DNA of 32,000 nt from Acaryochloris marina S15 (GTDB taxonomy: Bacteria; Cyanobacteriota; Cyanobacteriia; Thermosynechococcales; Thermosynechococcaceae). The translations under genes were made by a program, and so were the position numbers. Location: the NCBI RefSeq assembly GCF_018336915.1, contig NZ_CP064923.1:2610001-2642000 (forward strand), in the 5' to 3' direction. The notes beneath the pieces were generated by a model that worked only from the letters and a program-made list of their open reading frames with translations, was not told the origin of the DNA and did no database searches. Positions 3,926 to 27,619 of this stretch are shown here, piece after piece; the first letter of the stretch is position 1, and each line of letters begins with the position of its first letter.

Positions 3926-4672
3926 TATTAGCGTTGTTAGGGTGAGTCAGGGTTCTAATTTGTAGGGAAAGATGAAAGAGTTGTTCAACGAGCCTTAAAT
4001 CTAGACCGTAGTCAAAATGATTCCATGCCTTTCCTAGCTAGACTTTGGAGGATTGGCGACATCATAAAAGATTTTTATACTAAATTGCCCTATATCGCAA
4101 CCTCGGCCTTTCTATACCTTGATGATTTACTGGCCTGGATTATTCATGACTATTTGGGCAATTCCTCGAACACGTTTCTAATGGATTAAACGCAGCACCT
4201 GCCTGAAATACAGCTTGTTTCTAGAAGTGTCCCTGTAGTCAGTGTTTGAAGCCCGAATGATTTATGAGGGCTAGATACTGAGTTTATGAAAATACGCAAT
4301 ATAAAAATCAGATAAAACGTATCGATCACATAACTTTAAAAAAAATAATATTCTGTCAGTGAAAAATACTTACAAAAAATGACTTTAAAAATACTAATAA
4401 ATGACTTATTTTTATCTCAAAGCTAAATAAATATGTTATAACTTGAAAACAGAGTAAATAAATAATAGTTTCCCATCAAATATTTAGTCCAGTTTCTATC
4501 TCTGTTGAATCTGAAATGTATTGCCTTCTTCCTTAAATAGATTTAGCTCTTTATAAGGTTTAACTATATAAGAAGTATACAAATATCAATTTTATTGTGT
4601 AATCGTTCCCTTGATTTTTGAAGTAAATAAGTTAGGCACTGGAGTGCAGGTTTAGCAAGGGTTTTATCTATT

Positions 4673-5833
4673 GTGAAAGTAATCATTAATGCGTTGCACA
4701 GAGCAACTAGGCCCACAGGTGTGTGCAGATACGCTTTTAATCTAGCTATTGACTTATCAAGCTTGAGCAATATTGAAGAAGTTGTTCTACTTGTTGGTAA
4801 ATGGCAAGAATGTTACTTCTATTCCTCATTTGAAGTAAATAAAAGTAAAATTAAAATTGTGGCTATTGATATAAAAAATAATGCCCTTTCCAGAAATTTT
4901 TGGTTTTTACTTAGCCTCCCTAAGATAGTAAAGAAATTAAGAGGAGATCTTTTACATCTATCTTTCCCTATTCCAGTCGTAGGACACTGGATGAAAGTAC
5001 CTACTTATGTTACTGTTCATGACTTATATCCCTATGACATTCCAGAAAACTTTGGTTTTCCAAGAGTCTACTTCAATAGACTTTTTCTATTGATGAGTGT
5101 AAAGACTATTGAGAATATAGTTTGTGTTTCACATACAACAAAAAAACGATTAATACATTATTTCCCTCAAGAGTGTAAAGAAAAAAAAATATCAGTTGTT
5201 TATAATACAGTTAAGTTTTCGAGTGTCAAAGAGGTAGAGCCAAATTTTCTTTCTCACCTTCAATATTCTCCATTTTTTCTGTGCAATTCTCAACATAGAA
5301 AAAACAAAAATATTCCTCTTATACTTGAAGCTTTTTCAGACTTGCTTTTATCTAGAAAAATTAACTCTAAAACATTCTTATTGATTGTTGGCTCTAAAGG
5401 ACCTGAAACTGAAAAAATCTCCAAAATGTTATGGGATTTTCGAATTGATAAAAATACTATTTTCGTAGATTCTATTACTGACAATGAGCTGGCATGGTTA
5501 TATAAAAAATGTCAATTATTTATTGCGGCTTCTAGCTGTGAGGGTTTTTGCATTCCTTTGGCAGAAGCGTTGTTATTTTCAACAAATGTAGTATGTTCAA
5601 ATATATCGATATTCAAGGAAATTGGAGATAATAGCTTTACATACTTTGATCTGGATAAAAATGCATCTCATAATTTAGCAAAAGCGATAGAAAATTCATT
5701 GAATTACAAAGTTTTTAAGAACACAGTTGTTCAAGATAGTGTTAGTAAAAACAGAAATCTGTTTCTTAGTTCTGCAGATAAATATGGAGATTTATATAGC
5801 AGAAGTTTAGTGAATACTCCTACCTTTCAATAA
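4673..5833 (+). CDS. Glycosyltransferase, GT1/GT4-type (GT-B fold)
   Basis: 386-aa ORF with a GTG start. It carries the C-terminal GT1 signature EGFCIPLAEALLFSTNVVCSNISIFKEIGDNSFTYFD (the EX7E-type region). The gene is strikingly AT-rich compared with its neighbours. Confidence 0.8.
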   Translation: MKVIINALHRATRPTGVCRYAFNLAIDLSSLSNIEEVVLLVGKWQECYFYSSFEVNKSKIKIVAIDIKNNALSRNFWFLLSLPKIVKKLRGDLLHLSFPIPVVGHWMKVPTYVTVHDLYPYDIPENFGFPRVYFNRLFLLMSVKTIENIVCVSHTTKKRLIHYFPQECKEKKISVVYNTVKFSSVKEVEPNFLSHLQYSPFFLCNSQHRKNKNIPLILEAFSDLLLSRKINSKTFLLIVGSKGPETEKISKMLWDFRIDKNTIFVDSITDNELAWLYKKCQLFIAASSCEGFCIPLAEALLFSTNVVCSNISIFKEIGDNSFTYFDLDKNASHNLAKAIENSLNYKVFKNTVVQDSVSKNRNLFLSSADKYGDLYSRSLVNTPTFQ

Positions 5834-5864
5834 AAGCCTTTAGCAATTCTTATGGAATAAAGGG

Positions 5865-8800
5865 ATGAATATTTTAATTGAAGCAGAAAGTTATATCGGT
5901 GGCACTAATGGCGTTGAATATTTCGATACTTCGGCGGGTAACGGTGGCAACGCAAACCAATTTGCGGATGATGTAGATGTTCAGATTACTGATGACGTAG
6001 CAGGAGACTACCATCTCACAAAAATCAAGCCTGGAGAGTACTTAACCTACCAAATTGATATAGCCAATTCCGGTGAATATAACTTAGTCGCGCGTATTGC
6101 AAGTGGCCTAAATAATCGCAAGGTCGAAATCACGTTAGGTGGACAGACTTACAACTTAGATTTCGACAGTACTGGGGGAGCTTGGGCTGATGTTATCCTA
6201 CCGAGTATATTTTTGGATGCCGGTTCACAAGAGCTGCGGGTAGATGTGGTCAAAGGTGCCTTTGAACTCAACTATTTTGAACTGCAGCCAGTTGGAGGGA
6301 TAAGCCCAGACACAGACGCACCGACAGCAAGCTTGAATGCAAGTGACATCATGACTGCAGGTGGGACAGACTATAGCTTTACAGTGAGTTATAACGATGC
6401 TACTGGTCTTGATGAGGCAACAATTGATACAAATGACATCACAGTAATAGGGCCAAATGGTGCTTTACCTGTGACTTCAGTAGTAAATAATGCCGATGGC
6501 ACTGTTACCTACACAATAAGTGCCCCAGGGGGATCTTGGGATGAGGCTGATGATGGTTCTTATACCGTGACGCTTCAAGCCGGAGAAGTCGCCGATGTTC
6601 TCGGTAACATTGTGCCGGAGCTGTTATTGGGAACCTTTGCAGTGAATATTGCAAACCCTCCACCTCCTAGTCCTAACCTTCGTATTGAAGCAGAAAGTTA
6701 TATCGGTGGCACTAATGGCGTTGAATATTTCGATACTTCGGCGGGTAACGGTGGCAACGCAAACCAATTTGCGGATGATGTAGATGTTCAGATTACTGAT
6801 GACGTAGCAGGAGACTACCATCTCACAAAAATCAAGCCTGGAGAGTACTTAACCTACCAAATTGATATAGCCAATTCCGGTGAATATAACTTAGTCGCGC
6901 GTATTGCAAGTGGCCTAAATAATCGCAAGGTCGAAATCACGTTAGGTGGACAGACTTATAACTTAGATTTCGACAGTACTGGGGGAGCTTGGGCTGATGT
7001 TATCCTACCGAGTATATTTTTGGATGCCGGTTCACAAGAGCTGCGGGTAGATGTGGTCAAAGGTGCCTTTGAACTCAACTATTTTGAACTGCAGCCAGTT
7101 GGAGGGATAAGCCCAGACACAGACGCACCGACAGCAAGCTTGAATGCAAGTGACATCATGACTGCAGGTGGGACAGACTATAGCTTTACAGTGAGTTATA
7201 ACGATGCTACTGGTCTTGATGAGGCAACAATTGATACAAATGACATCACAGTAATAGGGCCAAATGGTGCTTTACCTGTGACTTCAGTAGTAAATAATGC
7301 CGATGGCACTGTTACCTACACAATAAGTGCCCCAGGGGGATCTTGGGATGAGGCTGATGATGGTTCTTATACCGTGACGCTTCAAGCCGGAGAAGTCGCC
7401 GATGTTCTCGGTAACATTGTGCCGGAGCTGTTATTGGGAACCTTTGCAGTGAATATTGCAAACCCTCCACCTCCTAGTCCTAACCTTCGTATTGAAGCAG
7501 AAAGTTATATCGGTGGCACTAATGGCGTTGAATATTTCGATACTTCGGCGGGTAACGGTGGCAACGCAAACCAATTTGCGGATGATGTAGATGTTCAGAT
7601 TACTGATGACGTAGCAGGAGACTACCATCTCACAAAAATCAAGCCTGGAGAGTACTTAACCTACCAAATTGATATAGCCAATTCCGGTGAATATAACTTA
7701 GTCGCGCGTATTGCAAGTGGCCTAAATAATCGCAAGGTCGAAATCACGTTAGGTGGACAGACTTACAACTTAGATTTCGACAGTACTGGGGGAGCTTGGG
7801 CTGATGTTATCCTACCGAGTATATTTTTGGATGCCGGTTCACAAGAGCTGCGGGTAGATGTGGTCAAAGGTGCCTTTGAACTCAACTATTTTGAACTGCA
7901 GCCAGTTATAATCGGCAGTTCACCGATTGCAGAAGAGATTCCTGACATAGTTGTGCTTGAAGACGCAAGCGATAGCAATATCGACTTATTTAACGTCTTT
8001 GATGACGCACAAGATAGTGACTCTGATCTAGCTTTCGTCGTCCTAGATAACTCTAACCCTAACTTAGTTTCCACAAGCCTCGCGGGTGGCACATTAACGC
8101 TAGATTACTCCGCCGTTGGCACTGGAGAAGCAAACATCACTATTAGGGCAACTGATACAGATAGTAATCCTACAGAAACGACTTTCACAACTACAGTTGT
8201 AACTCCACAGGCAAACGATGGGGTCATACGTATAAATGCTGGTGGCGATGCTGTCTATAACGATTTAGGACATCTCTTTCAAGCAGATACCTATAACGCT
8301 GGTGGTCAGGCTGTTAGTATTCTTAGCACTCAAGCAATCGCCAATACCAAATCCGACACCCTGTACCAGACTCAGCGACAGGGTGGCAATTTTACTTACA
8401 GTATTCCAGTAGCCAATGGCAACTATTTTGTCAACGCTCATTTGGTCGAGTGGGAAGCTACCGATTACAACCAGCGTTTGTTTGACATTACAGTCGAAGG
8501 GCAAACCTACTACGAGGACCTTGATGTCTACGGCGAAATCAAGAACGCCTTTTTGGCAGGTGAAAACACGGCTAAAGTCATTCAGGGGCCGGATAAAAAC
8601 ACGTCGATTATCGCCACAGTTGACGATGGTACTCTTGATATCAACTTCACGGCTAACCTAGGCGAAGCAACAATTGCGGCGCTGGAAATTGTCCCGGTTG
8701 GCCCCGGTTGGTTGGTACGAGAAACCAACGGAAATACCCAGGTGACTGAGGGCGCAACGGTAGATTCCTACACCATTGCATTGACGACTCAACCCACGAG

Positions 8801-10643
8801 CGATGTTGTGGTGACTCTACAGTTCGACAGTAGTCAGCTGAGCACCAACGTGACTAGTCTTACCTTTTCACCCAGCAACTGGAATCAAGCTCAGACCGTT
8901 ACAGTTACGCCGGTGGACGATGCATTGGCAGAGGGCCTACATACCTCTACAATTGCACACACCATTAGTTCTAGTGACCCTGACTACAGTAGCGGTCTGC
9001 CGGTGAACAATGTGACCGTTGCCATAACTGACAATGATGGTACGGGTGGTTCAATCAGCTTCACCCAGCAGCTGATTGCCGAGCCTATCAAGCCAACTTC
9101 AGCTGCATTTGGTCCTGACGGTCGACTATATGTTGCCTCGGTGACTGGCAACATCACCGTCTACACGCTCAATGACGACTATACTGTAGCAACCACCGAA
9201 GTAATCGATGTCATTAGTAACCTGTCGAACTCCAATATTACTGGTATTGCTTTCAACCCTTACGAAACGACTCCCAAGATTTATATCTCGCATAATGAAT
9301 TTTATGCTAACGGCGGGGATGCTTTTGCGGCCACTGAGTTTTCACCTTATAGTGGTCAAGTTTCCATATTGGAAGAAGTTAATGGTAATTGGGAGCTGAC
9401 ACCTCTGGTCACAGGCATTGGTGTTTCCAACCATGACCACGGAGTTAACGGCCTGGAGTTTGACAATAATGGCGACCTCTTTATAACCTCTGGTAGTAAC
9501 ACCAATGCTGGTGTTGCTGACCCTACTATCGGTGGTATCGACGAATCACCCTTCACTGCGGCTATCCTAAAGGCTGAGATTACTAAACCCGATTTCAACG
9601 GTAATATTGAGTACAGCCTGATCAGCGAGAATGACCTTATTCAGCCGGTTCCTCAGGCATTTCTAGACAGTTTGCCGCCCGAAATTTTTAACCCACCTAG
9701 TAATCTAGGTTTTGACCCAGCTGATAGCCAATTTTGGGGAGGGTACGTCGATGTCGTACCCGGTGTAGATGTCTCAGTCTATGCTAGTGGTCTGCGCAAC
9801 CCCTACGATTTAGTCTTCACAACTCAAGGTCTCCTCTATGCAACCGAAAACAATGCCAACGGCGGCTTCGGGGCGGAGTCAACAGGAGCTTATACCGATG
9901 TCCCCTTTGGCCAAGAACAGCCGGAAGAGCTGAATTTAATTCAAGAGGGCGCTTACTACGGTCATCCTAATCGTAACCGTGGTCGGGCCGATGCTCGTCA
10001 GAATGTCTACTACGACAGCCCAGTTGACCTACCTACTGAAGGCTACACAGCACCTATTGGAACCTTCCTAGGATCTACTAATGGTATCACCGAATACCGG
10101 GCGACAACCTTCGGTGGGCAGCTCCGTGGAAACTTGCTGGCCCAAAAATGGAAAAACAATCTCTACAATATAGAGCTATCCTCTGACGGGACTCAGGTTT
10201 TAGACAGCATCAACCTTAACGATGTAGCAACTGTGACTGGTGGCACCACCAATGGCCGGGTGGCCCAAGGTCTAGATATTATCACTGGACCTGGGGGGGC
10301 CATCGTCGGGGTCGACTATACTCGCGATGAGTTAACGATCGCCATTCCAGATGAGTTTGGCGTAACAGGTCCAACCGCTTACGATATCTACCCTTGGCGA
10401 GCGCCAGTTACTGGCGGCCAGGCGTTTATCATCGGTGGGGTCAACTTTGATACTGACCCAGGCGATACGAGAGTATTCGTGGGAGATCAGGAAATATTCA
10501 ATCTGGGTGTCTCTGAAGAGCGGATTACAGGTATTTTGCCTAATCTTTCAAATCAGGTCGGTGGCCTACTCGATGTAACTATTAGGGATGCTAACGATAA
10601 TATCGTGTCCGTTATTTCTGAGGCATTCCAACCGCTAGCCTAA
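5865..10643 (+). CDS. 1592-aa multi-domain carbohydrate-binding protein: 3x CBM6-like, 2x Ig-like, cadherin-like, malectin, Calx-beta-like, GSDH-like beta-propeller, IPT/TIG
   Basis: CBM6-like modules: IEAESYIGG..GEYNLVARIASG..FELNYFELQPV. Malectin-like: VIRINAGGDAVYNDLGHLFQADTY..LYQTQRQG..FTYSIPVANGNYFVNAHLVEWE..RLFDITVEG. Calx-beta-like: FSPSNWNQAQTVTVTPVDDALAEGLHTSTIAHTISSSD. Glucose/sorbosone-dehydrogenase-like propeller: FGPDGRLYVAS, HDHGVNGLEFDNNGDLFITSG, SGLRNPYDLVF, LNLIQEGAYYGHPN. The C-terminal TIG-like region reads VTGGQAFIIGGVNF. An in-frame TAG at 5841 rules out an N-terminal extension. Confidence 0.85.
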   Translation: MNILIEAESYIGGTNGVEYFDTSAGNGGNANQFADDVDVQITDDVAGDYHLTKIKPGEYLTYQIDIANSGEYNLVARIASGLNNRKVEITLGGQTYNLDFDSTGGAWADVILPSIFLDAGSQELRVDVVKGAFELNYFELQPVGGISPDTDAPTASLNASDIMTAGGTDYSFTVSYNDATGLDEATIDTNDITVIGPNGALPVTSVVNNADGTVTYTISAPGGSWDEADDGSYTVTLQAGEVADVLGNIVPELLLGTFAVNIANPPPPSPNLRIEAESYIGGTNGVEYFDTSAGNGGNANQFADDVDVQITDDVAGDYHLTKIKPGEYLTYQIDIANSGEYNLVARIASGLNNRKVEITLGGQTYNLDFDSTGGAWADVILPSIFLDAGSQELRVDVVKGAFELNYFELQPVGGISPDTDAPTASLNASDIMTAGGTDYSFTVSYNDATGLDEATIDTNDITVIGPNGALPVTSVVNNADGTVTYTISAPGGSWDEADDGSYTVTLQAGEVADVLGNIVPELLLGTFAVNIANPPPPSPNLRIEAESYIGGTNGVEYFDTSAGNGGNANQFADDVDVQITDDVAGDYHLTKIKPGEYLTYQIDIANSGEYNLVARIASGLNNRKVEITLGGQTYNLDFDSTGGAWADVILPSIFLDAGSQELRVDVVKGAFELNYFELQPVIIGSSPIAEEIPDIVVLEDASDSNIDLFNVFDDAQDSDSDLAFVVLDNSNPNLVSTSLAGGTLTLDYSAVGTGEANITIRATDTDSNPTETTFTTTVVTPQANDGVIRINAGGDAVYNDLGHLFQADTYNAGGQAVSILSTQAIANTKSDTLYQTQRQGGNFTYSIPVANGNYFVNAHLVEWEATDYNQRLFDITVEGQTYYEDLDVYGEIKNAFLAGENTAKVIQGPDKNTSIIATVDDGTLDINFTANLGEATIAALEIVPVGPGWLVRETNGNTQVTEGATVDSYTIALTTQPTSDVVVTLQFDSSQLSTNVTSLTFSPSNWNQAQTVTVTPVDDALAEGLHTSTIAHTISSSDPDYSSGLPVNNVTVAITDNDGTGGSISFTQQLIAEPIKPTSAAFGPDGRLYVASVTGNITVYTLNDDYTVATTEVIDVISNLSNSNITGIAFNPYETTPKIYISHNEFYANGGDAFAATEFSPYSGQVSILEEVNGNWELTPLVTGIGVSNHDHGVNGLEFDNNGDLFITSGSNTNAGVADPTIGGIDESPFTAAILKAEITKPDFNGNIEYSLISENDLIQPVPQAFLDSLPPEIFNPPSNLGFDPADSQFWGGYVDVVPGVDVSVYASGLRNPYDLVFTTQGLLYATENNANGGFGAESTGAYTDVPFGQEQPEELNLIQEGAYYGHPNRNRGRADARQNVYYDSPVDLPTEGYTAPIGTFLGSTNGITEYRATTFGGQLRGNLLAQKWKNNLYNIELSSDGTQVLDSINLNDVATVTGGTTNGRVAQGLDIITGPGGAIVGVDYTRDELTIAIPDEFGVTGPTAYDIYPWRAPVTGGQAFIIGGVNFDTDPGDTRVFVGDQEIFNLGVSEERITGILPNLSNQVGGLLDVTIRDANDNIVSVISEAFQPLA
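5877..7907 (+). repeat. Tandem repeat, period 807 bp (269 codons), about 2.5 copies, near 100% nucleotide identity
   Basis: Copies start at 5877, 6684 and 7491. The third copy ends at 7907, after the CBM6-like half. The only difference I found by eye is a synonymous C/T (C at 6152 and in copy 3, T at 6959). The identical minus-strand ORFs at 6624-6821 and 7431-7628 are a by-product of this repeat. Confidence 0.95.
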
Positions 10644-10975
10644 ACGGATTTCACAGTCATGGGTCAACATCGATTACCTAAATATACTCACATCGGTTGA
10701 GTGGTTATCAATGTGAACATTCTGGATTTACTCGATTCTGTAGTAGAAGGTATAAGGCTAAACAGCCATGTTAAATAAAATCGCCAAGAACTTGCCGAAA
10801 AGAGCATGCGAGGCTGAAGCCCTTATATCTTCTTTTAGAAACCAAAATCTTGGTTTCCAGACTGTATGTTCTACTCCGAGCATTTTCGGTTTGTATAGGG
10901 ATTTAAGTTATTGCGGATATATAACTTACACCTAAAAGTCTAGAAAAGTTTCAAAATCTTTTCAGTGCAATGGCC

Positions 10976-11005
10976 TTGACTAATTCGGAAAACTCTAAAT
11001 AGCAT
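10976..11005 (+). promoter_or_regulatory. Candidate sigma70-type promoter upstream of the ABC exporter operon
   Basis: TTGACT (10976-10981), an 18-nt spacer, then TAGCAT (11000-11005), about 85 nt upstream of the ATG at 11091. This is a pattern match only. Confidence 0.2.
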
Positions 11006-11090: not shown

Positions 11091-12905
11091 ATGTTGCGAA
11101 CTCTCAAAAAATTATTGTACATCCTGCCCGCGGGCAATATAAATCTCGCCTGGATGGTGCTCTTGTTTATCGCAGCTTCCTGCCTAGAAGTTGTTGGTAT
11201 TGGCGTTATTGGACCTTTCATTGCCCTGGCTAGCGATTCGCAGCTTCTGTACAATTATTCAGCTCTGATTTGGCTATTTGAACGGGTCGGAGCATTGAGC
11301 GAAGCTCAATTTATCGGAATCTTAGGTATTGTTGTCGTTACAGTCTTTATCCTCAAAACCTTATTTGGCTGGCTTACCCAAATACTAATCGTACGGTTCT
11401 GTGATCGACAGCAACGCAACCTAATATCAAGAATGGTCACGGGCTATCTAAGCGCACCCTATATATTTCATACAGAGAAAAATAGCTCCTCTATTATCGA
11501 TAACGTTCTCGAGATTGCTAATACTTTCACGATTACGATCTTGTCACCTCTCCTGACAACGGCTTCTAATATTTTTGTAGCGTCAGCGCTATTTATTCTC
11601 CTCTACAGAACCAGCAGTGTCACAATGATCGTTTTGCTGACGACGCTGCTACCAATTTTCATATTCCTCAATTCTTTCCGAGTCAAGATTCAGACTTGGG
11701 GTAAGCAGGCTCGTAAGAGCAAGGGGGACATGATTCAGACGCTCAACCACGCCTTTGGCGGGATCAAAGAGACTAAGGTAATCGGTTGTGAATCTTTCTT
11801 CGAGACCAAAATCTTGTCGCAGGCTAGAGGACTGGAGGAAGCGCATGTAAGCTTTATCACCTTTCGACTGCTACCGCGCTACATCATGGAAATGGTCATG
11901 GTAGTGTGCGTGGTTGGTTTGGTGTCGATTTCTTTGCTCAACAACCAGCAAGTTGAGAATCTTACCTCAGTACTTGGAATATTTGCGCTAGCCTCCATTC
12001 GTATGATTCCAGCTATAAGCAACTCTGTGATCGGGATTAACCAGCTCAGAAACTCTTCCTATACGATCAACCATCTGCACACTGAAGTTATAGAGTTAGA
12101 ACGGCTTGAGGAAATGACCAAGATCCGCCTGTCTAATCTAACTGGCCCGCAACTTGGAGCAAGAACTGGCCTAACCTTTCGCGACTGTTTGAAGCTAGAA
12201 ACGATTTCATACCAATATCCTGGAGCTAACCAACCGTCACTCGATCGGATTTCTCTGAGTGTTAACTGTGGAGAATCCATCGCCTTCATCGGTAAGTCAG
12301 GTGCGGGCAAAACGACGCTGGTCGATGTAATTCTAGGGTTATTAATTGCTCAGTCAGGCGATATCAGTATTGACGGCAAATCAATCTACAATGACCTTGC
12401 AGCTTGGCAGAGCTTGATTGGCTATATCCCACAGTCGATCTTCCTAACTGACGACACTATCGAAAGGAATATAGCCTTCGGTGTACCCGATGAGCAAATC
12501 GATTCGCAACGACTACATGACGCTATCCGCTCGGCCCAGTTGGAAGAGGTTATCCAGCAGCTACCAAACAATGTTAAGACCAAAGTAGGGGAGCGAGGCG
12601 TGCTGCTCTCGGGCGGTCAACGACAACGAATTGGCATTGCCAGGGCGCTATATCATGAACGTGAGATTCTGGTTCTAGACGAGGCGACCGCAGCACTTGA
12701 CAATGAAACGGAGCGTTTAGTCACTGAATCTATCAGGTCGCTAAGTGGCAAGAAAACAATAATCACTATTGCACACCGTCTTAGTACCATCAAGCATTGC
12801 GACTGCATCTACTTGCTCGAAAATGGTCGTATTGTCAGCTCAGGTAGCTACACAGACGTTGTTTTAAACCATAAAAATAGCATCGAAGCTAAAGAAAAAG
12901 TTTAG
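11091..12905 (+). CDS. ABC exporter, fused permease plus ATPase (MsbA/PglK/HepA-like type I exporter half-transporter)
   Basis: The N-terminal half is hydrophobic with multiple TM segments. Walker A GKSGAGKTT, ABC signature LSGGQRQRIGIARAL, Walker B ILVLDEAT and H-loop IAHRL are all present. Confidence 0.9.
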   Translation: MLRTLKKLLYILPAGNINLAWMVLLFIAASCLEVVGIGVIGPFIALASDSQLLYNYSALIWLFERVGALSEAQFIGILGIVVVTVFILKTLFGWLTQILIVRFCDRQQRNLISRMVTGYLSAPYIFHTEKNSSSIIDNVLEIANTFTITILSPLLTTASNIFVASALFILLYRTSSVTMIVLLTTLLPIFIFLNSFRVKIQTWGKQARKSKGDMIQTLNHAFGGIKETKVIGCESFFETKILSQARGLEEAHVSFITFRLLPRYIMEMVMVVCVVGLVSISLLNNQQVENLTSVLGIFALASIRMIPAISNSVIGINQLRNSSYTINHLHTEVIELERLEEMTKIRLSNLTGPQLGARTGLTFRDCLKLETISYQYPGANQPSLDRISLSVNCGESIAFIGKSGAGKTTLVDVILGLLIAQSGDISIDGKSIYNDLAAWQSLIGYIPQSIFLTDDTIERNIAFGVPDEQIDSQRLHDAIRSAQLEEVIQQLPNNVKTKVGERGVLLSGGQRQRIGIARALYHEREILVLDEATAALDNETERLVTESIRSLSGKKTIITIAHRLSTIKHCDCIYLLENGRIVSSGSYTDVVLNHKNSIEAKEKV

Positions 12906-12915
12906 GAGATTTGTG

Positions 12916-13809
12916 ATGACATTACCAAACTTTCTAATTATCGGTGCGGCCAAAGGCGGAACTACTTCTCTCTACTATTATTTGGACCAGCATCCGCAGG
13001 TATACATGAGTCCGGTGAAAGAACCTCGGTTCTTTGCTCTGGAGGATGAAGATCTCAACTTTTGCAGCCCTGACGAGCTGTTTGTTGAAAATTCTATCCT
13101 AGATTTTGGCGACTACTGCCAACTGTTCGAAGGGGCTACTAACGAAGTCGCTATTGGAGAAGCTTCACCTCTGTATTTATACAGCACCAAGGCTCCTAGC
13201 CGCATCAAGCATTACATTCCAGACATAAAGCTGATTGCGATTCTACGCGATCCAGTCGATCGAGCTTACTCGAGCTATATGCATTATGTTAGAGAGGGCT
13301 ATGAACAGTGTTCCTTTGCTAAAGCGTTAGCAGTTGAAGAACAGCGCATCCACGAAAACTGGGTCTATATGTGGTACTACAAGCGCTGCGGCTACTACCA
13401 TGAACAGATCAAACGCTACCTGGATACGTTCGATGCCTCCCAGATTAAAATTTGTCTCTATGACGATTTAAAGGCAAACACGCCCTTATTCCTACAAGAT
13501 ATTTTTAGCTTCTTAAACGTAGACAGCAGCTTTGTTCCGGATCTCTCCGTTCTGAATGCATCAGGAGTTCCCAAAAGTCGGTTGCTTTACAATTTCCTTG
13601 ATCGAGGTAATCCAGCTCGAACTATGCTCAAAGTGCTGCCCCACGACTTACGAAGAGCAATCGCAAAGCCTCTCAGAAAGTGGAATCTAGAAAAACCAAC
13701 CCTGCCTCCCGAAGTTGGAAATGACCTCAGGAGTGTCTATCGCGATGACATTCTGAAGCTGCAAGACCTGATTGATCGCGATCTTTCTTCCTGGCTACTA
13801 GTTAGCTAG
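12916..13809 (+). CDS. Sulfotransferase (Sulfotransfer_1-like, heparan-sulfate-type motifs)
   Basis: 5'-PSB loop IIGAAKGGTTSL and 3'-PB motif ILRDPVDRAYSSY. The AGGAG at 12904-12908 favours ATG 12916 over the GTG at 12913 given in the ORF track. The gene lies 7-10 nt after the ABC gene stop. Confidence 0.85.
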   Translation: MTLPNFLIIGAAKGGTTSLYYYLDQHPQVYMSPVKEPRFFALEDEDLNFCSPDELFVENSILDFGDYCQLFEGATNEVAIGEASPLYLYSTKAPSRIKHYIPDIKLIAILRDPVDRAYSSYMHYVREGYEQCSFAKALAVEEQRIHENWVYMWYYKRCGYYHEQIKRYLDTFDASQIKICLYDDLKANTPLFLQDIFSFLNVDSSFVPDLSVLNASGVPKSRLLYNFLDRGNPARTMLKVLPHDLRRAIAKPLRKWNLEKPTLPPEVGNDLRSVYRDDILKLQDLIDRDLSSWLLVS

Positions 13810-13881
13810 CTCAATAACTCTGATTCAAGTTCCCGCCATCCCCCTCTGTCTCGCGTTAGCTGAGTTACTCAATAATATCCT

Positions 13882-14973
13882 ATGAATAGCCGACCTCTTG
13901 TCAGCATTATCATCAATAATTTTAATTACGAACGATTTCTGGCGGAAGCTATCGATAGCGCTTGTGCTCAGACCTATGAAAACACAGAAGTTCTCGTTGT
14001 TGATGACGGTTCGACAGACGCCTCGCGAAAGATTATTAGCCGATACACAGACCGTATTCAGACTGTCTTAAAAGAGAACGGTGGTCAGGCCTCAGCCTTT
14101 AACGCTGGTTTTGACGCGAGCAAGGGTGAGATCATCCTTTTTCTAGACGCCGACGACCTGCTACTTCCTGAAGCCGTCGAAAGGATCGTGGCAGTCTGGC
14201 AACCTGAAACCGTTAAGGTCCACTATCTGCTCAACGGCATCGATGCTAATGGTCAATCGCTGGGTTATACCTATCCGTCTCGAGGTGAGTATTTAGGTCG
14301 AGGTGATGTCGTTACTAAACTACTAGAGCGGGGTGTCTACGGTGTGGCACCAACCAGTGCGAATGCCTTTAGCCGAATAGCACTTGACAAGATTTTCCCC
14401 ATTCCAGCCGACAAGTACCGAATTTCTGCAGACGGTTACATTGCAACCTGTATTGTCTTCTACGGTAAGGTCGTCGCAATTGAAACACCACTGGGCGCAT
14501 ACCGAGTTCACGGCAACAACAATTGGGGCAATGCGATAAACGCCAGCAAGTTTCGATCATTCATCGAGCACGATTTACGAAAACGAGACCTTATTCTTAA
14601 TAGGGCTCAAGCTTCAGGTTATGAAGTACCTGTTGACCTGCTCTTTCGTACTAATACTCACCTGTGGGCGCGACTGGCATCCTTTCGTCTCGACCGTAAA
14701 CAGCATCCGGTTAAATCTGATAGCCTTCTGAAGCTCATGTACCACGGTATCCGCTCGACCTGGCTCTACTCTGATCTCAATCGCCAGAAGCAGTTGGTGG
14801 TCACCCTCTGGTTTTTTGTCGTCGGCCTGCTACCCGTCCCTATTGCTAAACCGGCAATTAGCTGGCTGCTTGCTCAGGAAAGTCGACCTAAGTCTGTGGA
14901 ATGGATATTGAACCGAATCCGGCCGCTTTTGAACCGGACCAGTGTCAGCCTTCATCAAGAGAAAGCCTTATGA
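13882..14973 (+). CDS. Glycosyltransferase family 2 (paralogue A)
   Basis: GT-A signature VSIIINNFNYERFLAEAIDSACAQTY..EVLVVDDGSTD and FLDADD. The C-terminal third carries a hydrophobic segment (LVVTLWFFVVGLLPVPIA). Confidence 0.85.
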   Translation: MNSRPLVSIIINNFNYERFLAEAIDSACAQTYENTEVLVVDDGSTDASRKIISRYTDRIQTVLKENGGQASAFNAGFDASKGEIILFLDADDLLLPEAVERIVAVWQPETVKVHYLLNGIDANGQSLGYTYPSRGEYLGRGDVVTKLLERGVYGVAPTSANAFSRIALDKIFPIPADKYRISADGYIATCIVFYGKVVAIETPLGAYRVHGNNNWGNAINASKFRSFIEHDLRKRDLILNRAQASGYEVPVDLLFRTNTHLWARLASFRLDRKQHPVKSDSLLKLMYHGIRSTWLYSDLNRQKQLVVTLWFFVVGLLPVPIAKPAISWLLAQESRPKSVEWILNRIRPLLNRTSVSLHQEKAL

Positions 14974-16028
14974 GCGATTCACCTCTTGTCAGTATTGTCA
15001 TTAACAACTACAACTACGAACAATTTCTTGCTGAGGCTATCAATAGTGCATTGGAACAGACTTATCCGAATGTAGAGGTTTTAGTAGTTGACGATGGCTC
15101 CACAGACGGATCCCGCTTCTTAATTGAGGTCTACGGAGACCGCATTCGCGCGATCTTTCAGCCTAACTGTAAGCAGGCTGCAGCGCTGAACACGGGCTTT
15201 GAGGCTAGTCAAGGCGAAATAATTCTCTTCCTAGATGCCGATGACTATCTACGACCTGAGGCAGTTGAGCAGGTCGTCACAGCGTTTCAGGAGGGGATCG
15301 GTAAGGTGCATTTTCGGTTACAGGTGGTAGACAGCAGCAGCCGACCGCTCGGCTACTATATCCCTTCAGTGGGAATGGCGTTGGCCAAAGGTGAAGTCTG
15401 GAGAGACTTGATGAAAACCAGTAGCTACGTTAGTTCACCGATGAGTGGCAATGCCTACCGCCGAGAGACATTGCAACCTGTCTTTCCCATTCCAGATAAA
15501 TACAAAACGACCGCTGACGACTATCTAATGATTTCAACACCATTCTATGCTGGCAAGCTAGCTGGTATCAACGACCCTATAGGCGCTTATCGCGTACATG
15601 ACAGCAACCAGTGGGCACTAACAACTGTCACAGGTAGCCGGTTTCGGCGTTTTGTCAAGCACGATCTGCTGAATTTTGCTCTGCTGAAGCAGCGGGCTGC
15701 CGAAAAAAAACAATCGGTTTCTTTGGACTTGGAGCAGAGATCGTTGGGGCGCATCTGGTCGCGATTGGCGTCGCTACGGTTGGAACCTCAAGATCACCCA
15801 GTCTCTACAGATCAAGTTAGTCAGCTTGTCCACTGGGGTATTCGTGCCCTGTGGAAGTTCTCCAGCCACAATTTTCAGAAACGCGTCATCTATAGCGGCT
15901 TATTTTTCTGGGTGGGCTTTATGCCGCGACCGCTCGCCAAGTTAGGCATCACTTGGCTATACGCTCCGCACCTGCGACCCAAAGTTATTGACCAGACCAT
16001 CAACCGTATGCGATCGCTAGTTAGCTAG
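14970..16028 (+). CDS. Glycosyltransferase family 2 (paralogue B)
   Basis: MSDSPLVSIVINNYNYEQFLAEAINSALEQTY..EVLVVDDGSTDGS, FLDADD. It is colinear with paralogue A along its whole length. The ATG at 14970 overlaps the upstream TGA (ATGA), so I prefer it to the 14901 start in the ORF track. Confidence 0.85.
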   Translation: MSDSPLVSIVINNYNYEQFLAEAINSALEQTYPNVEVLVVDDGSTDGSRFLIEVYGDRIRAIFQPNCKQAAALNTGFEASQGEIILFLDADDYLRPEAVEQVVTAFQEGIGKVHFRLQVVDSSSRPLGYYIPSVGMALAKGEVWRDLMKTSSYVSSPMSGNAYRRETLQPVFPIPDKYKTTADDYLMISTPFYAGKLAGINDPIGAYRVHDSNQWALTTVTGSRFRRFVKHDLLNFALLKQRAAEKKQSVSLDLEQRSLGRIWSRLASLRLEPQDHPVSTDQVSQLVHWGIRALWKFSSHNFQKRVIYSGLFFWVGFMPRPLAKLGITWLYAPHLRPKVIDQTINRMRSLVS

Positions 16029-16065
16029 GTTGACATTCAGCTGAGCGTGCAATTGGGAACTATAA

Positions 16066-16749
16066 ATGATTATTTCACATAAGCATAAATTTATATTTAT
16101 TAAAACCGAGAAAACAGCTGGGACGAGCATAGAGATTGCGTTGTCTAAGTACTGTGGCGACGACGATATCATCACACCCCTAGTAATCGAAGATGAGCAA
16201 ACACGCCAAAAACATGCTGCCCGAGGCGCGCAGAACTACTACGTCGATTTCAAAAATTATACGGTTAAAGATTGGGGCAAGCTACTCGTCAAGGGTCATC
16301 GAAAAATGTTCTATCACCATATGAGTGCTGAGGAAATAAAGTGGTTGATTCCTGCTGAGATCTGGAACAACTACTACAAGTTTTCGTTTGAGCGGAATCC
16401 CTGGGATAAAGTGATTTCCTGGTACTACTGGACCTACAAGTCAGAACCACGGCCTTCACTGAAAGAGTTTATCCACTCTGGAGAAGCTAGCGAAGTTAAA
16501 GGCTGGAGCCTGTATACCATAGAAGACCAGATCATCGCTGACAGAATCGGACGTTTCGAGAATCTCAACGGAGACATCCTAGAAATTTCTAAAACGCTAG
16601 GTCTGCCAAAGCCACTCAGGCTATTGCGGAGCAAGAGCAATTTTCGCAAGGAGAAAAAGAGCTACCGCGACTTGCTAGATGTGGAAGACCGGGATGCAAT
16701 TGAGAAGATGTTTTCGAAAGAAATTGACTATTTCGGCTATTCATACTGA
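16066..16749 (+). CDS. Sulfotransferase family 2-like protein
   Basis: FIFIKTEKTAGTSIE resembles the F[IV]H[IV]PKTGGTS PAPS-binding loop. FERNPWDKVISWYYW resembles the RNPWDRxxS 3'-PB motif of the Sulfotransfer_2 family. Confidence 0.7.
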   Translation: MIISHKHKFIFIKTEKTAGTSIEIALSKYCGDDDIITPLVIEDEQTRQKHAARGAQNYYVDFKNYTVKDWGKLLVKGHRKMFYHHMSAEEIKWLIPAEIWNNYYKFSFERNPWDKVISWYYWTYKSEPRPSLKEFIHSGEASEVKGWSLYTIEDQIIADRIGRFENLNGDILEISKTLGLPKPLRLLRSKSNFRKEKKSYRDLLDVEDRDAIEKMFSKEIDYFGYSY

Positions 16750-17741
16750 TGTCTAAAATGAACACGATAACTGCAAAAAGGCTAGGCTATCTTACCCGGC
16801 GATCCAGAGAAAAGATTCAAGATGCCGTCGAGGATACGATCAGAGGTTGGCAGGCGGTTGGTCGGCAGCAGGCCGAAGTTGTCAATGAAAAAGAGATCCG
16901 AGTCCTGGGATTAAGGCGGTCTGGGAACCATGCGGTCATTAACTGGATTTGCAAGCAGCTGCCGGAGAACCATGTCTTCATCAACCATAGTCGGATCAAG
17001 GAGAACCCTTACCGAAATGTATACCGCGACCAGCTGTTTCTGGCACAACATGGTGACCTAAAAGGCTGGCGGTGTGAGAATATCGAATGGTGGGAGGAAG
17101 AAGCCAGAGGCCATTTTTCACACAAGGACTGCCTGGTTTACAGCTACGAAGACCAGGAAATCCAGCGAGTAGCTCACCCTGCCTTCGAGACAAGGCACAA
17201 TCTTTACTTAGGTAAGAGCCACGAACGAATCGACGTGATCATCATCCGAGATCCGTTCAACCTTTTGGCCAGTCGTCTCAAGGGTAACAAGCCTCGAGAA
17301 AAAGCTAGAAATTTTAACCTCATGCAGGTCTATTCGCATCGGCTGAACCTGCCGGAACTCTGGATTGAATATGCCAAAGAATGCTTAGGAGAGACCCAGC
17401 ATCTCCAAAACAATAAGATTGTAATTAAATATAACGACTGGTTTGCTAATGCAGCCTATCGCCAACAGATTGCTGGACAGCTGGGGCTTGAATTCTCTGA
17501 TGAGGGCTTCAACGAGGTGACGCGGGCGGGCGGCATTGGTAGCTCCTTCGACGGAACTGGATTCAACGGACAGGTGGCTAAAATGGATGTTCTGAGACGC
17601 TGGAAACAATTTGCTGATGACCCGCGCTTTCGAGCGTTGGCGTGCACGCCGACGCTGATTGACTATTCGAGAAAGCTATTTGGTCACTCTCCAGCGCTCG
17701 AACCACTAATTGAAGACCTCCAACGATCATGGGTAGGCTAA
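16749..17741 (+). CDS. Hypothetical protein, possible highly divergent sulfotransferase
   Basis: 330-aa ORF whose ATG overlaps the upstream TGA (TGATG at 16747-16751). P-loop-like VLGLRRSGNHAVINWI and IIIRDPFNLLASRLK resemble 5'-PSB and 3'-PB motifs. Confidence applies to the functional call; that it is coding is more certain. Confidence 0.45.
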   Translation: MSKMNTITAKRLGYLTRRSREKIQDAVEDTIRGWQAVGRQQAEVVNEKEIRVLGLRRSGNHAVINWICKQLPENHVFINHSRIKENPYRNVYRDQLFLAQHGDLKGWRCENIEWWEEEARGHFSHKDCLVYSYEDQEIQRVAHPAFETRHNLYLGKSHERIDVIIIRDPFNLLASRLKGNKPREKARNFNLMQVYSHRLNLPELWIEYAKECLGETQHLQNNKIVIKYNDWFANAAYRQQIAGQLGLEFSDEGFNEVTRAGGIGSSFDGTGFNGQVAKMDVLRRWKQFADDPRFRALACTPTLIDYSRKLFGHSPALEPLIEDLQRSWVG

Positions 17742-17754
17742 CAGGAGAATCAAT

Positions 17755-18891: not shown

Positions 18892-18968
18892 TAACGAAGG
18901 AAGCAAATAAAGAAAATATCCTTGATCTTAAGGTATCAAGGCATTGATGTATTTAGAGAGATTAGTAC

Positions 18969-19859: not shown

Positions 19860-20018
19860 GGCTGATGAAAAAAATTACGACAAGATAGCTTGTTGGCTTT
19901 GATCGATTTTGTGAGATACATAACATGACTATTGATATAAAAAATAGATTCTAAATAAACTGATTTTTCAGTTTTTCGAGTATATTTTTGAGTTTGATTT
20001 TATAATCAAATATTTTAT

Positions 20019-21218: not shown

Positions 21219-21299
21219 ATAGAACACAAATAATCTCCACCACTCCAATCCCTTAGACTCATACATCTTATATCAACAGTTCTTGATATTTCTATAATA

Positions 21300-25560: not shown

Positions 25561-25608
25561 AGGGTTTCATTGTGAGGGGTAGTTATCTCCATGGAACCCT
25601 ATCTCTGT

Positions 25609-27590: not shown

Positions 27591-27619
27591 CTTTTTTCAT
27601 GAGCTTCAAATCCCTTGTT

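What the first reader, a model, noticed from the sequence alone, without database searches (positions are those of the whole stretch)
5865..10643. Leaderless 1592-aa multi-lectin protein embedded in the glycan locus
The domain order read from the sequence is CBM6-like, Ig-like, CBM6-like, Ig-like, CBM6-like, cadherin-like, malectin, Calx-beta-like, GSDH-type (PQQ sugar-dehydrogenase-like) beta-propeller, IPT/TIG. Every module is typical of extracellular glycan-binding proteins. Yet the protein starts MNILIEAESY.., directly inside the first CBM, with no hydrophobic signal peptide and an in-frame TAG at 5841. I saw no RTX repeats, PEP-CTERM or other C-terminal sorting motif. The codons ATG AAT ATT TTA align with CCT AAC CTT CGT, which precede repeat copies 2 and 3. 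The start codon therefore sits where an inter-repeat linker would be, as if the original 5' end had been lost or replaced next to the AT-rich GT gene. The combination of a malectin, three CBM6 modules and a GSDH propeller is one I do not recognise as a described protein. It could be an EPS-tethering, EPS-modifying or EPS-sensing component.
Basis: partly seen in the sequence, partly recalled or inferred. Interest (0 to 1): 0.7.

Follow-up and report, generated by a model that had tools for sequence, protein, structure and literature searches.

The report
Truncated leaderless EPS-locus lectin protein
This is a real but 5'-truncated copy of a large, uncharacterised cyanobacterial sugar-binding protein that sits in exopolysaccharide gene clusters; its relatives in cyanobacteria also lack a signal peptide, so that feature belongs to the family and points to export by a route other than Sec.

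Summary
The ORF at 5865-10643 (1592 aa) is real and matches NCBI protein WP_212665900.1 of Acaryochloris marina.

Two points change the interpretation.

(1) The gene is 5'-truncated. Its closest relatives (77% identity, 2069-2303 aa) carry about 500-700 extra N-terminal residues: DUF4347, an unnamed double beta-sandwich "N-domain", and an Ig-like domain. Homology starts at base 5877, where an AT-rich block abuts the gene. The ATG comes from that foreign block. The conserved upstream genes wzc and wecG are absent from the window.

(2) The lost part held no signal peptide. All 41 cyanobacterial loci checked are leaderless, including members that naturally start at a CBM6 or at the malectin domain. 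Homologues in Planctomycetota and other phyla have Sec signal peptides.

The cyanobacterial proteins are very acidic, nearly cysteine-free and end in a TIG domain with a conserved AFxPL tail. This fits C-terminal-signal (type I-like) export, which is inferred, not shown.

The gene lies in a conserved cassette: wzc | wecG - lectin - PglK-like ABC exporter - glycosyl- and sulfotransferases. The propeller has the soluble PQQ glucose dehydrogenase fold. The catalytic His and the Arg-Asn pair are conserved; the rest of the PQQ site could not be tested.

I propose an extracellular EPS-binding or EPS-modifying matrix protein. The family is uncharacterised. Interest is moderate.

The parts
5865..10643 (+). 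Whole ORF: 1592 aa, 5'-truncated member of the cyanobacterial CBM6-malectin-propeller-TIG family (WP_212665900.1). It has 0 Cys and a computed pI of about 4.05.
5865..5876 (+). Start codon plus three codons (ATG AAT ATT TTA). They come from the AT-rich upstream block and are not homologous to the linker that precedes repeat copies 2 and 3.
5877..7907 (+). Tandem DNA array with an 807-nt period and 2.52 copies, encoding CBM6-Ig-CBM6-Ig-CBM6. Copies 1 and 3 are identical; copy 2 has one synonymous difference at 6959.
   Evidence: Pfam; PDB CBM6 match
7908..8220 (+). Big_9 / 'tandem-95' cadherin-like beta-sandwich (approximately aa 682-785).
   Evidence: BLASTP to the repeats of P0071, E 9e-19; Pfam Big_9 only at E 0.16
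8223..8684 (+). Malectin domain (aa 787-940).
   Evidence: Pfam PF11721, E 3.7e-25; PDB malectin 2k46, E 6e-14
8700..9060 (+). Calx-beta-like beta-sandwich (approximately aa 946-1065).
   Evidence: BLASTP to the repeats of the Calx-beta protein P0062, E 6e-28; no Pfam hit
9099..10370 (+). Six-bladed beta-propeller with the soluble PQQ glucose dehydrogenase (GSDH) fold. It carries the conserved motifs SNHDHGVNG, GLRNPYD and YYGHPNRNRGR.
   Evidence: AF2 model, pLDDT 93; Foldseek hits to sGDH, 3a9g, 2ism, 3das, HHIP and AA12; profile alignment
10371..10640 (+). C-terminal IPT/TIG domain ending in the conserved tail ...SEAFQPLA. It is a candidate C-terminal export determinant; this is an inference.
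   Evidence: Pfam; tail conservation; association with leaderless N-termini
4250..5876 (+). AT-rich block (GC 20-35%) holding a GT4 glycosyltransferase gene (4673-5833). It replaces the native 5' end of the lectin gene, its upstream region and wecG/wzc.
11091..12905 (+). ABC exporter (TMD+NBD, 604 aa). It lies directly downstream of the lectin gene in about 20 cyanobacterial loci. Best matches are the PglK, MsbA and HepA families.
12913..22529 (+). The rest of the EPS cluster: three sulfotransferases, two GT2 and three GT4 genes, and one unknown gene. It is syntenic with the Thainema and TARA relatives.

Best explanation
The ORF is a genuine, strain-specific, 5'-truncated member of an uncharacterised cyanobacterial family of giant modular glycan-binding proteins. 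The conserved core of the family is malectin, a Calx-like beta-sandwich, an sGDH-fold propeller and a terminal TIG domain. This core is usually preceded by CBM6/Ig arrays, an unnamed double beta-sandwich 'N-domain' and sometimes DUF4347.

Shown:
- The family gene sits in a conserved EPS cassette: wzc | wecG - lectin - PglK-like ABC - GTs (plus sulfotransferases in this clade).
- In this Acaryochloris strain a rearrangement put an AT-rich GT4-bearing block against base 5877. It removed DUF4347, the N-domain, one Ig module, the native upstream region and wecG/wzc. An in-frame ATG 12 nt inside the foreign DNA now serves as the start.
- The missing signal peptide is not due to this truncation. Every cyanobacterial member is leaderless, whereas homologues in other phyla use Sec signal peptides.

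Inferred:
- The cyanobacterial proteins leave the cell by a C-terminal-signal, type I-like route. They are large, Cys-free, very acidic, built from Ca-binding fold types, always end in TIG plus an AFxPL tail, and DUF4347 co-occurs with RTX repeats elsewhere. Such export would tolerate an N-terminal truncation, so the shortened protein could still be secreted. It may have lost an N-terminal retention or anchoring function.
- Outside the cell, the CBM6 and malectin modules bind the cluster's (sulfated) polysaccharide. The propeller either oxidises or otherwise modifies sugar residues, or acts as a further binding module. The protein would therefore be an EPS-matrix organiser or modifier.
For: - Truncation. 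Relatives P0002 (77% identity, 2069 aa) and L003 (2303 aa) extend 500-700 aa further at the N-terminus. blastn homology to L001 begins at 5877. GC jumps from about 29% to about 44% there. No remnant of DUF4347, the N-domain, wecG or wzc is found in the 32 kb window.
- Family-wide leaderless state. The 41 cyanobacterial loci have a maximum KD12 of 0.37-1.88 in the first 60 aa, against >=2.18 in 7 of 9 non-cyanobacterial loci. TIG-terminal members with an SP-like N-terminus number 2 of 62, against 30 of 57 for TIG-internal members; Fisher p = 5e-10, not corrected for phylogeny. Natural CBM-first (L020) and malectin-first (Nostoc, Tolypothrix, Calothrix genomes) variants are also leaderless.
- Extracytoplasmic nature of the modules. 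Propeller-TIG and N-domain homologues in other phyla carry Sec signal peptides.
- T1SS-like traits. The protein has 0 Cys in 1592 aa, pI of about 4.05 and 10% Gly. A cyanobacterial exoproteome paper describes putative T1SS substrates as lacking signal peptides, having Ca2+-binding motifs, pI below 5, being glycine-rich and having few or no Cys (PMC11424642). DUF4347 occurs together with RTX repeats (PF00353) in P0085, P0094 and P0107.
- EPS link. The ABC gene follows the lectin gene in about 20 loci, wecG precedes it in about 19 and wzc in about 12.
- Propeller. AF2 pLDDT is 93. The closest folds are sGDH, other PQQ sugar dehydrogenases, heparin-binding HHIP and AA12. The equivalents of sGDH His144, Arg228 and Asn229 are conserved.
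Against: - There are no RTX repeats, and no HlyD/MFP gene appears in the four annotated contexts (the window, L001, L002, L083), so type I export is indirect inference only.
- The link between the terminal TIG tail and the leaderless state is confounded with phylogeny, because all such members are cyanobacterial.
- sGDH Gln231 and Gln246 are replaced (by Tyr and Asn). The Ca-loop Gly-Pro is Asn-Ala in this protein. The blades that hold Lys377, Arg406 and Arg408 could not be aligned. PQQ-dependent catalysis is therefore unproven.
- Most cyanobacteria are not known to make PQQ (my own knowledge, not tested here).
- The truncation removed the native upstream region and conserved neighbours, so this copy may be poorly expressed or inactive.
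- No expression or localisation data exist.
Confidence: 0.55

Rival explanations
1. Decaying remnant. The rearrangement removed the N-terminal modules, the native upstream region and wecG/wzc. The ORF would then be a recent pseudogene that has not yet acquired stop codons, and the ATG at 5865 would be fortuitous.
For: - Truncation junction at 5877.
- Only a 31-bp spacer after the GT4 stop, and no promoter-like site above chance.
- The island is flanked by IS fragments, an RHS gene and a recombinase.
- The gene occurs in a single sequenced strain.
Against: - A 4.8-kb ORF with no frameshift or stop.
- All downstream cluster genes are intact and of the expected length.
- Natural family members that start at a CBM6 or at malectin show that the N-terminal modules are dispensable.
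- An in-frame ATG lies within the 8 codons available.
Confidence: 0.2
2. The adjacent ABC transporter is the dedicated exporter of the lectin protein, so protein and polysaccharide export would be coupled. In this reading it is not a PglK-like flippase for lipid-linked sugars.
For: - Strict lectin-then-ABC adjacency in about 20 loci across several cyanobacterial orders.
- The ABC has the TMD-NBD exporter architecture also used by T1SS ABC proteins, and the T1SS families score 186-202 bits.
Against: - The best full-length matches are PglK (311 bits), MsbA and HepA, not HlyB or PrtD.
- No membrane-fusion protein gene is nearby.
- Lectin genes occur without an adjacent ABC in L002, L086 and L084.
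Confidence: 0.15
3. The family acts inside the cell or at the inner face of the membrane, for example on nascent polymer, so the lack of a leader would simply reflect a cytoplasmic location.
For: There is no signal peptide, TM segment or known sorting motif in any cyanobacterial member.
Against: - The propeller-TIG core and the N-domain carry Sec signal peptides in other phyla.
- CBM6, malectin, Calx-like and TIG are extracytoplasmic module types.
- The Cys-free, pI ~4 composition is typical of secreted type I substrates.
Confidence: 0.07
4. Assembly or annotation artefact. A collapsed or mis-joined repeat would have produced a false 5' end.
For: Near-identical 807-bp repeats are hard to assemble.
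Against: - The source contig is a 5.88-Mb chromosome.
- The junction is with unrelated AT-rich coding DNA, not with another repeat copy.
- Copy 2 carries its own synonymous difference.
- Long exact internal repeats recur in relatives, including the isolate genome PCC 7335.
Confidence: 0.04

Closest known systems
Soluble PQQ-dependent sugar dehydrogenases (A. calcoaceticus sGDH 1c9u/1qbi; Asd/Adh 2g8s, 3das, 3a9g, 2ism) and CAZy AA12 (CcPDH 6jt5)
   Same: Six-bladed propeller fold: Foldseek E 3e-13 to 2e-8, TM about 0.65 relative to the small targets. The catalytic His (sGDH His144) and Arg228/Asn229 are conserved. Like AA12, the propeller is fused to carbohydrate-binding modules.
   Different: Sequence identity is only 12-18%. 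Gln231 is replaced by Tyr and Gln246 by Asn. There is an insertion of about 18 aa after the Ca loop. The family has its own invariant motif, YYGHPNRNRGRxDxRQN. The last blades cannot be aligned, so the PQQ carboxylate ligands are unverified. The propeller is embedded in a 1600-2800 aa lectin array, and no activity is known.
Hedgehog-interacting protein (HHIP) propeller, including its heparin complex (3ho5, 7pgm)
   Same: The same propeller fold (Foldseek E about 1e-9). HHIP shows that this fold can act as a non-catalytic binder of sulfated glycans, which is relevant to a locus with three sulfotransferases.
   Different: HHIP is eukaryotic. No sequence relationship is detectable, and no binding data exist for this protein.
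CBM6 of Clostridium thermocellum CtXyl5A (2y8k/5la0) and malectin (2k46) / CBM57-type malectin-like modules
   Same: Clear sequence homology: E 5e-36 for CBM6 and E 6e-14 for malectin.
   Different: In those proteins the modules target a glycoside hydrolase or an ER quality-control function. Here no hydrolase domain is present, and the partner is an sGDH-like propeller.
Type I secretion substrates and adhesins (RTX proteins; LapA/MpIBP-type adhesins with N-terminal retention modules; cyanobacterial HlyA/Sll1951 and HesF)
   Same: Large, leaderless, acidic, Cys-free, built of tandem Ig-like or Ca-binding beta-sandwich modules. DUF4347, which heads some family members, co-occurs with RTX repeats in other proteins.
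   Different: There are no RTX nonapeptides. No HlyB/HlyD pair is adjacent. The secretion signal has not been demonstrated.
Vibrio cholerae biofilm matrix proteins RbmC/Bap1 (propeller plus lectin domains that bind VPS). This comparison is from my own knowledge.
   Same: The concept is the same: a secreted propeller-plus-lectin protein, encoded with EPS genes, that organises the matrix.
   Different: The propeller type differs (8-bladed FG-GAP/VCBS against 6-bladed sGDH-like). RbmC/Bap1 are Sec/T2SS-secreted. There is no homology.

Membership tests
Cyanobacterial CBM6-malectin-propeller-TIG family (unnamed; relatives P0002-P0034, loci L003-L065) | Collinear core of malectin, Calx-like sandwich, sGDH-like propeller and terminal TIG, with full-length similarity | tested here: met
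   45-77% identity over the core to more than 30 proteins; 81-50% identity in alignment A1, with many invariant columns
Cyanobacterial CBM6-malectin-propeller-TIG family (unnamed; relatives P0002-P0034, loci L003-L065) | N-terminal DUF4347 and/or double beta-sandwich N-domain | tested here: not met
   Absent from the ORF and from the whole window. It is also absent in the natural CBM-first (L020) and malectin-first (L025, L028, L034, L041, L064) members, so it does not define the core.
Cyanobacterial CBM6-malectin-propeller-TIG family (unnamed; relatives P0002-P0034, loci L003-L065) | Conserved C-terminal tail [D/E/N]AF[Q/L/K]PL at the very end | tested here: met
   The window protein ends ...SEAFQPLA; the tail is shared by nearly all 41 cyanobacterial loci.
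Cyanobacterial CBM6-malectin-propeller-TIG family (unnamed; relatives P0002-P0034, loci L003-L065) | Genomic cassette wzc | wecG - lectin - ABC exporter - GTs | tested here: inconclusive
   The downstream half (ABC, sulfotransferases, GT2, GT4) is present and syntenic. The upstream half (wzc, wecG) is missing from the window.
PQQ-dependent soluble sugar dehydrogenase (Pfam GSDH PF07995 / CAZy AA12) | Six-bladed propeller fold and a Pfam GSDH match above threshold | tested here: met
   PF07995: 45.2 bits against a cut-off of 25. AF2 model plus Foldseek top hits to sGDH and Asd.
PQQ-dependent soluble sugar dehydrogenase (Pfam GSDH PF07995 / CAZy AA12) | Catalytic base His (sGDH His144) and the Arg228/Asn229 pair | tested here: met
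   The profile-to-1c9u alignment places His144 on the H of SNHDHGVNG, and R228-N229 on the invariant RN of GLRNPYD.
PQQ-dependent soluble sugar dehydrogenase (Pfam GSDH PF07995 / CAZy AA12) | Remaining PQQ and Ca ligands (Gln231, Gln246, Gly247/Pro248, Lys377, Arg406, Arg408; residue numbers recalled from the sGDH literature and checked against the alignment numbering only for residues 144-250) | tested here: inconclusive
   Gln231 is replaced by Tyr and Gln246 by an invariant Asn. Gly-Pro is kept in the family consensus but is Asn-Ala here. The C-terminal blades could not be aligned by profile search.
PQQ-dependent soluble sugar dehydrogenase (Pfam GSDH PF07995 / CAZy AA12) | PQQ binding and sugar oxidation activity | not testable with these tools
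   Needs biochemistry.
Type I secretion system substrate | No N-terminal signal peptide; acidic; few or no Cys | tested here: met
   criteria as described in PMC11424642
Type I secretion system substrate | RTX (GGxGxD) Ca-binding repeats near the C-terminus | tested here: not met
   0 motifs; no PF00353 hit
Type I secretion system substrate | Dedicated ABC (HlyB/PrtD type) plus a membrane-fusion protein encoded nearby | tested here: not met
   The adjacent ABC is closest to PglK, MsbA and HepA. No HlyD-type gene is present in the window, L001, L002 or L083. T1SS genes can, however, be unlinked from their substrates.
Type I secretion system substrate | Functional uncleaved C-terminal secretion signal; TolC-dependent export | not testable with these tools
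   Only indirect evidence: the conserved terminal TIG tail is associated with leaderless N-termini.
CBM6 (Pfam PF03422 / PF18099) | Profile match above threshold and homology to a solved CBM6 | tested here: met
   103.6 and 119.8 bits, three copies; 2y8k CBM6, E 5e-36
Malectin (PF11721) | Full-length profile match above threshold | tested here: met
   89.2 bits, profile positions 2-163 of 163

The most novel reading that the evidence does not exclude
Cyanobacteria export a whole family of giant EPS-cluster lectin/propeller proteins without a signal peptide. The terminal TIG domain plus its AFxPL tail would be a previously unrecognised, non-RTX C-terminal secretion determinant. Export might be coupled to the conserved PglK-like ABC exporter next door, so that the matrix protein and the (sulfated) polysaccharide leave the cell together. 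The propeller would be a new EPS-modifying, PQQ-like or cofactor-independent enzyme.
Probability: 0.15. Interest if true: 0.75.

Novelty: new variant of a known kind. Interest (0 to 1): 0.5.

Why it matters
How cyanobacteria move large proteins across their envelope is an open question. The exoproteome literature says that the main routes are unknown and that recognised T1SS substrates are few (PMC11424642).

This family offers a clean comparison. The same modules carry Sec signal peptides in Planctomycetota, Chloroflexota and other phyla, but are always leaderless in cyanobacteria, where they end in a conserved TIG tail. That makes the export signal directly testable.

The family is also the only large non-enzymatic-looking protein conserved inside a widespread wzc/wecG/ABC EPS cassette, including sulfated-EPS clusters. 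It is therefore a prime candidate for the protein partner that organises or modifies cyanobacterial sulfated polysaccharide. That is relevant to biofilms, mats and biomaterial production.

The specific window gene is a naturally N-terminally deleted allele. It could serve as a ready-made test of whether the N-terminal modules are needed for export or for retention.

Tried and rejected
- Upstream extension of the ORF: excluded by the in-frame TAG at 5841. No DUF4347 or N-domain remnant was found by tblastn anywhere in the window.
- Homology between ATGAATATTTTA and the inter-repeat linker: only 4 of 12 bases match, so rejected.
- Literature: searches for DUF4347, for malectin + cyanobacteria + EPS + sulfotransferase, and for malectin + sorbosone dehydrogenase + CBM6 found no description of this architecture. 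The synechan (xss) paper mentions no such protein.
- N-domain identity: no Pfam hit and no PDB sequence hit. The AF2 model is good (pLDDT 88) but Foldseek returns only generic tandem beta-sandwich matches with TM <0.3. Its function remains unknown.
- Remaining PQQ ligands in blades 5-6: profile searches did not align that region to any solved sGDH or Asd, so this is unresolved.
- Plasmid origin: megablast of 4200-11000 against PLSDB found nothing.
- Other Acaryochloris genomes: none of the 80 loci from GTDB species representatives is Acaryochloris, and the 90% cluster has one member.
- Promoter and terminator scans around the junction: counts are at chance level and uninformative.
- C-terminal 100 aa against 1.84 billion representatives: 171 hits. 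Most of those examined have family-like features (propeller motifs or the conserved tail). I did not systematically test whether the TIG tail occurs outside the family.
Full report
**Observation check**

An in-frame TAG lies eight codons upstream, at 5841. The identical protein is in NCBI as 'carbohydrate-binding domain-containing protein [Acaryochloris marina]' (QUY44821.1 / WP_212665900.1). It comes from a 5.88-Mb contig and is the only member of its 90%-identity cluster.

Pfam confirms three CBM6/CBM35 modules, a malectin domain (aa 787-940), a GSDH propeller and a terminal IPT/TIG domain. The CBM is clearly homologous to the CBM6 of C. thermocellum CtXyl5A (2y8k, E 5e-36), and the malectin domain to vertebrate malectin (E 6e-14).

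The softer domain calls hold at a weaker level:
- The two Ig-like modules give only sub-threshold Filamin, Big_5 and SWM_repeat hits.
- The 'cadherin-like' module matches the repeats of a Big_9/Cadherin_5 'tandem-95' protein by BLASTP (E 9e-19).
- The 'Calx-beta-like' module matches the repeats of an annotated Calx-beta protein (E 6e-28). It has no Pfam hit.

The protein has no hydrophobic N-terminus, no TM span and no RTX motif.

**The repeat**

The CBM6-Ig units form a DNA tandem array at 5877-7907, with an 807-nt period and 2.52 copies. Copies 1 and 3 are identical. Copy 2 differs by one synonymous base. Long exact internal repeats recur in relatives: 380 aa in P0004/P0006, 252 aa in P0030, 156 aa in P0009, and 107 aa in the isolate genome PCC 7335. 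Recent intragenic duplication or conversion is therefore a family habit rather than an assembly artefact.

**The gene is 5'-truncated**

The closest relatives are a TARA metagenome protein (P0002, 77% identity, 2069 aa) and a Thainema sp. gene (L003, 2303 aa). Both have about 500-700 extra N-terminal residues, made up of DUF4347 (PF14252, E 6e-54), an unnamed domain of about 300 aa, and an Ig module placed before the first CBM6.

Several lines place the break precisely:
- At DNA level, homology to L001 starts at window base 5877.
- The same base is where identity between repeat copies begins.
- There, an AT-rich block (GC 20-35%, about 4250-5876, carrying a GT4 gene) meets 44-48% GC coding sequence.
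- The four codons ATG AAT ATT TTA therefore belong to the foreign block. Their 'alignment' to CCT AAC CTT CGT is positional only (4 of 12 matches).
- No remnant of DUF4347, the N-domain, wecG or wzc exists anywhere in the 32 kb.

Upstream of the block lie an IS256-type transposase fragment and an RHS toxin gene. Downstream of the cluster lie three IS elements and a serine recombinase. No Acaryochloris genome is among the 80 related loci from GTDB species representatives. The best matches belong to Leptolyngbyales, a different order. The locus thus looks like a horizontally acquired, rearranged island.

**The missing leader is a family trait**

I extracted the full ORFs from 41 cyanobacterial loci, and none has a signal-peptide-like N-terminus. 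The maximum 12-residue hydropathy in the first 60 aa is 0.37-1.88, and the window protein scores 0.71. By contrast, 7 of 9 homologues from Planctomycetota, Bdellovibrionales and other phyla score >=2.18 and show classical n-h-c leaders.

Cyanobacterial members begin in one of four ways:
- with DUF4347;
- with the N-domain (MNEALFIIDP...SSTF...ITNNS);
- directly with malectin (MATIRINAGG..., in the Nostoc, Tolypothrix and Calothrix genomes);
- or, in L020, directly with a CBM6 (MAKIISGTIRIEAEDY), at the normal position downstream of wecG.

An N-terminal CBM6 start with no leader is therefore not unique to the truncated gene. The N-domain itself, when it occurs as a stand-alone 340-450-aa protein in Chloroflexota, Verrucomicrobiota and others, does carry Sec signal peptides.

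Both halves of the family are thus extracytoplasmic elsewhere but leaderless in cyanobacteria. Across 119 family proteins, those ending in the TIG domain had an SP-like N-terminus in 2 of 62 cases. Those in which TIG is followed by further domains had one in 30 of 57 cases (Fisher p = 5e-10; this is not phylogeny-corrected and includes some fragments).

Nearly all cyanobacterial members end in [D/E/N]AF[Q/L/K]PL plus 0-2 residues, or in AFLPLFGSANFV in Nostocales. The window protein has no cysteine in 1592 residues, a computed pI of about 4.05 and 10% glycine. Cyanobacterial relatives have 0-4 Cys, whereas Sec-type homologues have 3-12. A cyanobacterial exoproteome study describes putative T1SS substrates in nearly the same terms: no signal peptide, Ca2+-binding motifs, pI below 5, glycine-rich, few or no Cys (PMC11424642). 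DUF4347 also co-occurs with RTX repeats in other proteins found here (P0085, P0094, P0107).

From this I infer a C-terminal-signal, type I-like export route. It has not been shown. There are no RTX repeats and no HlyD-type gene in the annotated contexts.

**Genomic context**

The family gene sits in a conserved cassette. A TMD-NBD ABC exporter (42-68% identical, full length) lies directly downstream in about 20 loci. A WecG-family glycosyltransferase lies upstream in about 19, and a Wzc-type tyrosine kinase in about 12. In the clade nearest the window these are followed by sulfotransferases and GT2/GT4 genes, in the same order as at 11091-22529. PCC 7335 shows the same association.

The ABC scores best against PglK (311 bits, end to end), then MsbA and HepA, and lower against the HlyB, PrtD and LssB T1SS families. 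All scores are below the curated cut-offs. I read it as a lipid-linked-sugar or polysaccharide exporter. The alternative, that it exports the protein, is kept as a rival.

A minimal 796-aa malectin-propeller-TIG member in Mojavia lies outside any EPS cluster.

**The propeller**

An AlphaFold2 model of aa 1079-1592, built with a 60-sequence alignment, has mean pLDDT 93.3 and pTM 0.94. Foldseek's best PDB matches are:
- soluble PQQ glucose dehydrogenase (5min, 1qbi, 1c9u; E 3e-13);
- other PQQ sugar dehydrogenases (3a9g, 2ism, 3das);
- hedgehog-interacting protein, including its heparin complex (3ho5, 7pgm);
- the AA12 pyranose dehydrogenase (6jt5).

All are at 12-18% identity.

A family profile aligns sGDH His144 to the conserved His of SNHDHGVNG, and Arg228-Asn229 to the invariant RN of GLRNPYD. 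Gln231 corresponds to Tyr and Gln246 to an invariant Asn. The Ca-loop Gly247-Pro248 is kept in the family consensus but is Asn-Ala in this protein, and it is followed by an insertion of about 18 aa. The last blades, which in sGDH hold Lys377, Arg406 and Arg408, could not be aligned. Cofactor binding is therefore unresolved. The family has its own invariant basic motif, YYGHPNRNRGRxDxRQN.

**The lost N-domain**

The N-domain has no Pfam or PDB sequence match. Its model (pLDDT 88) shows two tandem beta-sandwiches with no informative structural neighbour.

**Most likely explanation**

The window gene is a naturally N-terminally deleted allele of an uncharacterised cyanobacterial EPS-cluster protein. 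The family is probably exported C-terminus-first by a type I-like route, which would tolerate the truncation. Outside the cell it would bind the cluster's sulfated polysaccharide through CBM6 and malectin. The sGDH-like propeller would act either as a sugar-oxidising or sugar-modifying enzyme, or as another glycan-binding module.

The structural, comparative and contextual statements are shown by the results above. The export route and the function are inferences.

Rival readings and my estimates:
- recent pseudogene, 0.2;
- export by the adjacent ABC, 0.15;
- cytoplasmic role, 0.07;
- assembly artefact, 0.04.

**Novelty and interest**

The protein is already annotated, generically. Each module is known. 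The truncation is an ordinary island rearrangement. What is not described in the literature I could search is the family itself. It is conserved in wzc/wecG/ABC EPS cassettes, and it shows a clean contrast between Sec leaders in other phyla and the leaderless, Cys-free state with a TIG tail in cyanobacteria.

I rate it a new variant of a known kind, with moderate interest (0.5).

Noticed in passing
window 1-3351 (+): An RHS-repeat gene runs off the left end of the window. After the canonical RHS end motif (...RFRDPSGN) comes a variable C-terminal tip of about 170 aa with lower GC (34-36%). This is typical of a polymorphic toxin.
   Followed up: partly
window 3434-3634 (-): A short ORF encodes a transposase-like C-terminal fragment (…NRSLRKVIKTKAVFSNEDTV…) that I recognise as IS256/mutator-type from memory; this was not tested. 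It lies between the RHS gene and the AT-rich block, which fits an IS-mediated rearrangement at the left edge of the EPS cluster.
   Followed up: no
window 24500-31791: The right flank of the EPS cluster is a run of mobile-element genes: an ISKra4-like remnant (-), an IS66 transposase, a GNAT, a truncated IS4-family transposase and a 719-aa large serine recombinase (-). The cluster therefore looks like a genomic island.
   Followed up: partly
window 22980-24362 (+): An AT-rich (GC 34%) 460-aa ORF has no Pfam or NCBIfam hit but at least 7 hydrophobic spans. It is probably a Wzy-like polymerase. Homologues at 35-37% identity sit in the same cluster type in L007, L013, L014, L020 and L049.
   Followed up: partly
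window 12913-13809, 16066-16749, 18969-19859 (+): Three sulfotransferase genes of two Pfam types lie in one cluster. This implies a sulfated exopolysaccharide that is exported with a PglK-like ABC rather than the Wzx of the synechan (xss) system.
   Followed up: partly
relatives P0241-P0360; N-termini of P0005, P0009, P0011, P0017 and others: The N-domain lost from the window gene (about 300 aa, two beta-sandwiches) has no Pfam model. It nevertheless forms a large family of stand-alone, Sec-signal-bearing proteins of 340-450 aa in Chloroflexota, Verrucomicrobiota and other phyla, and some carry RTX repeats.
   Followed up: partly
P0376, P0380, P0384; L061: Some family members do not end in the TIG tail. 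They end in ...LVLELV-type sequences that resemble the last strand of the N-domain, which suggests the N-domain has been shuffled to the C-terminus.
   Followed up: no
window 13882-14973 and 14901-16028 (+): Two paralogous GT2 genes, each about 50% identical to the other's orthologue, overlap by 73 nt as called. The pair is conserved in tandem in most related loci.
   Followed up: no
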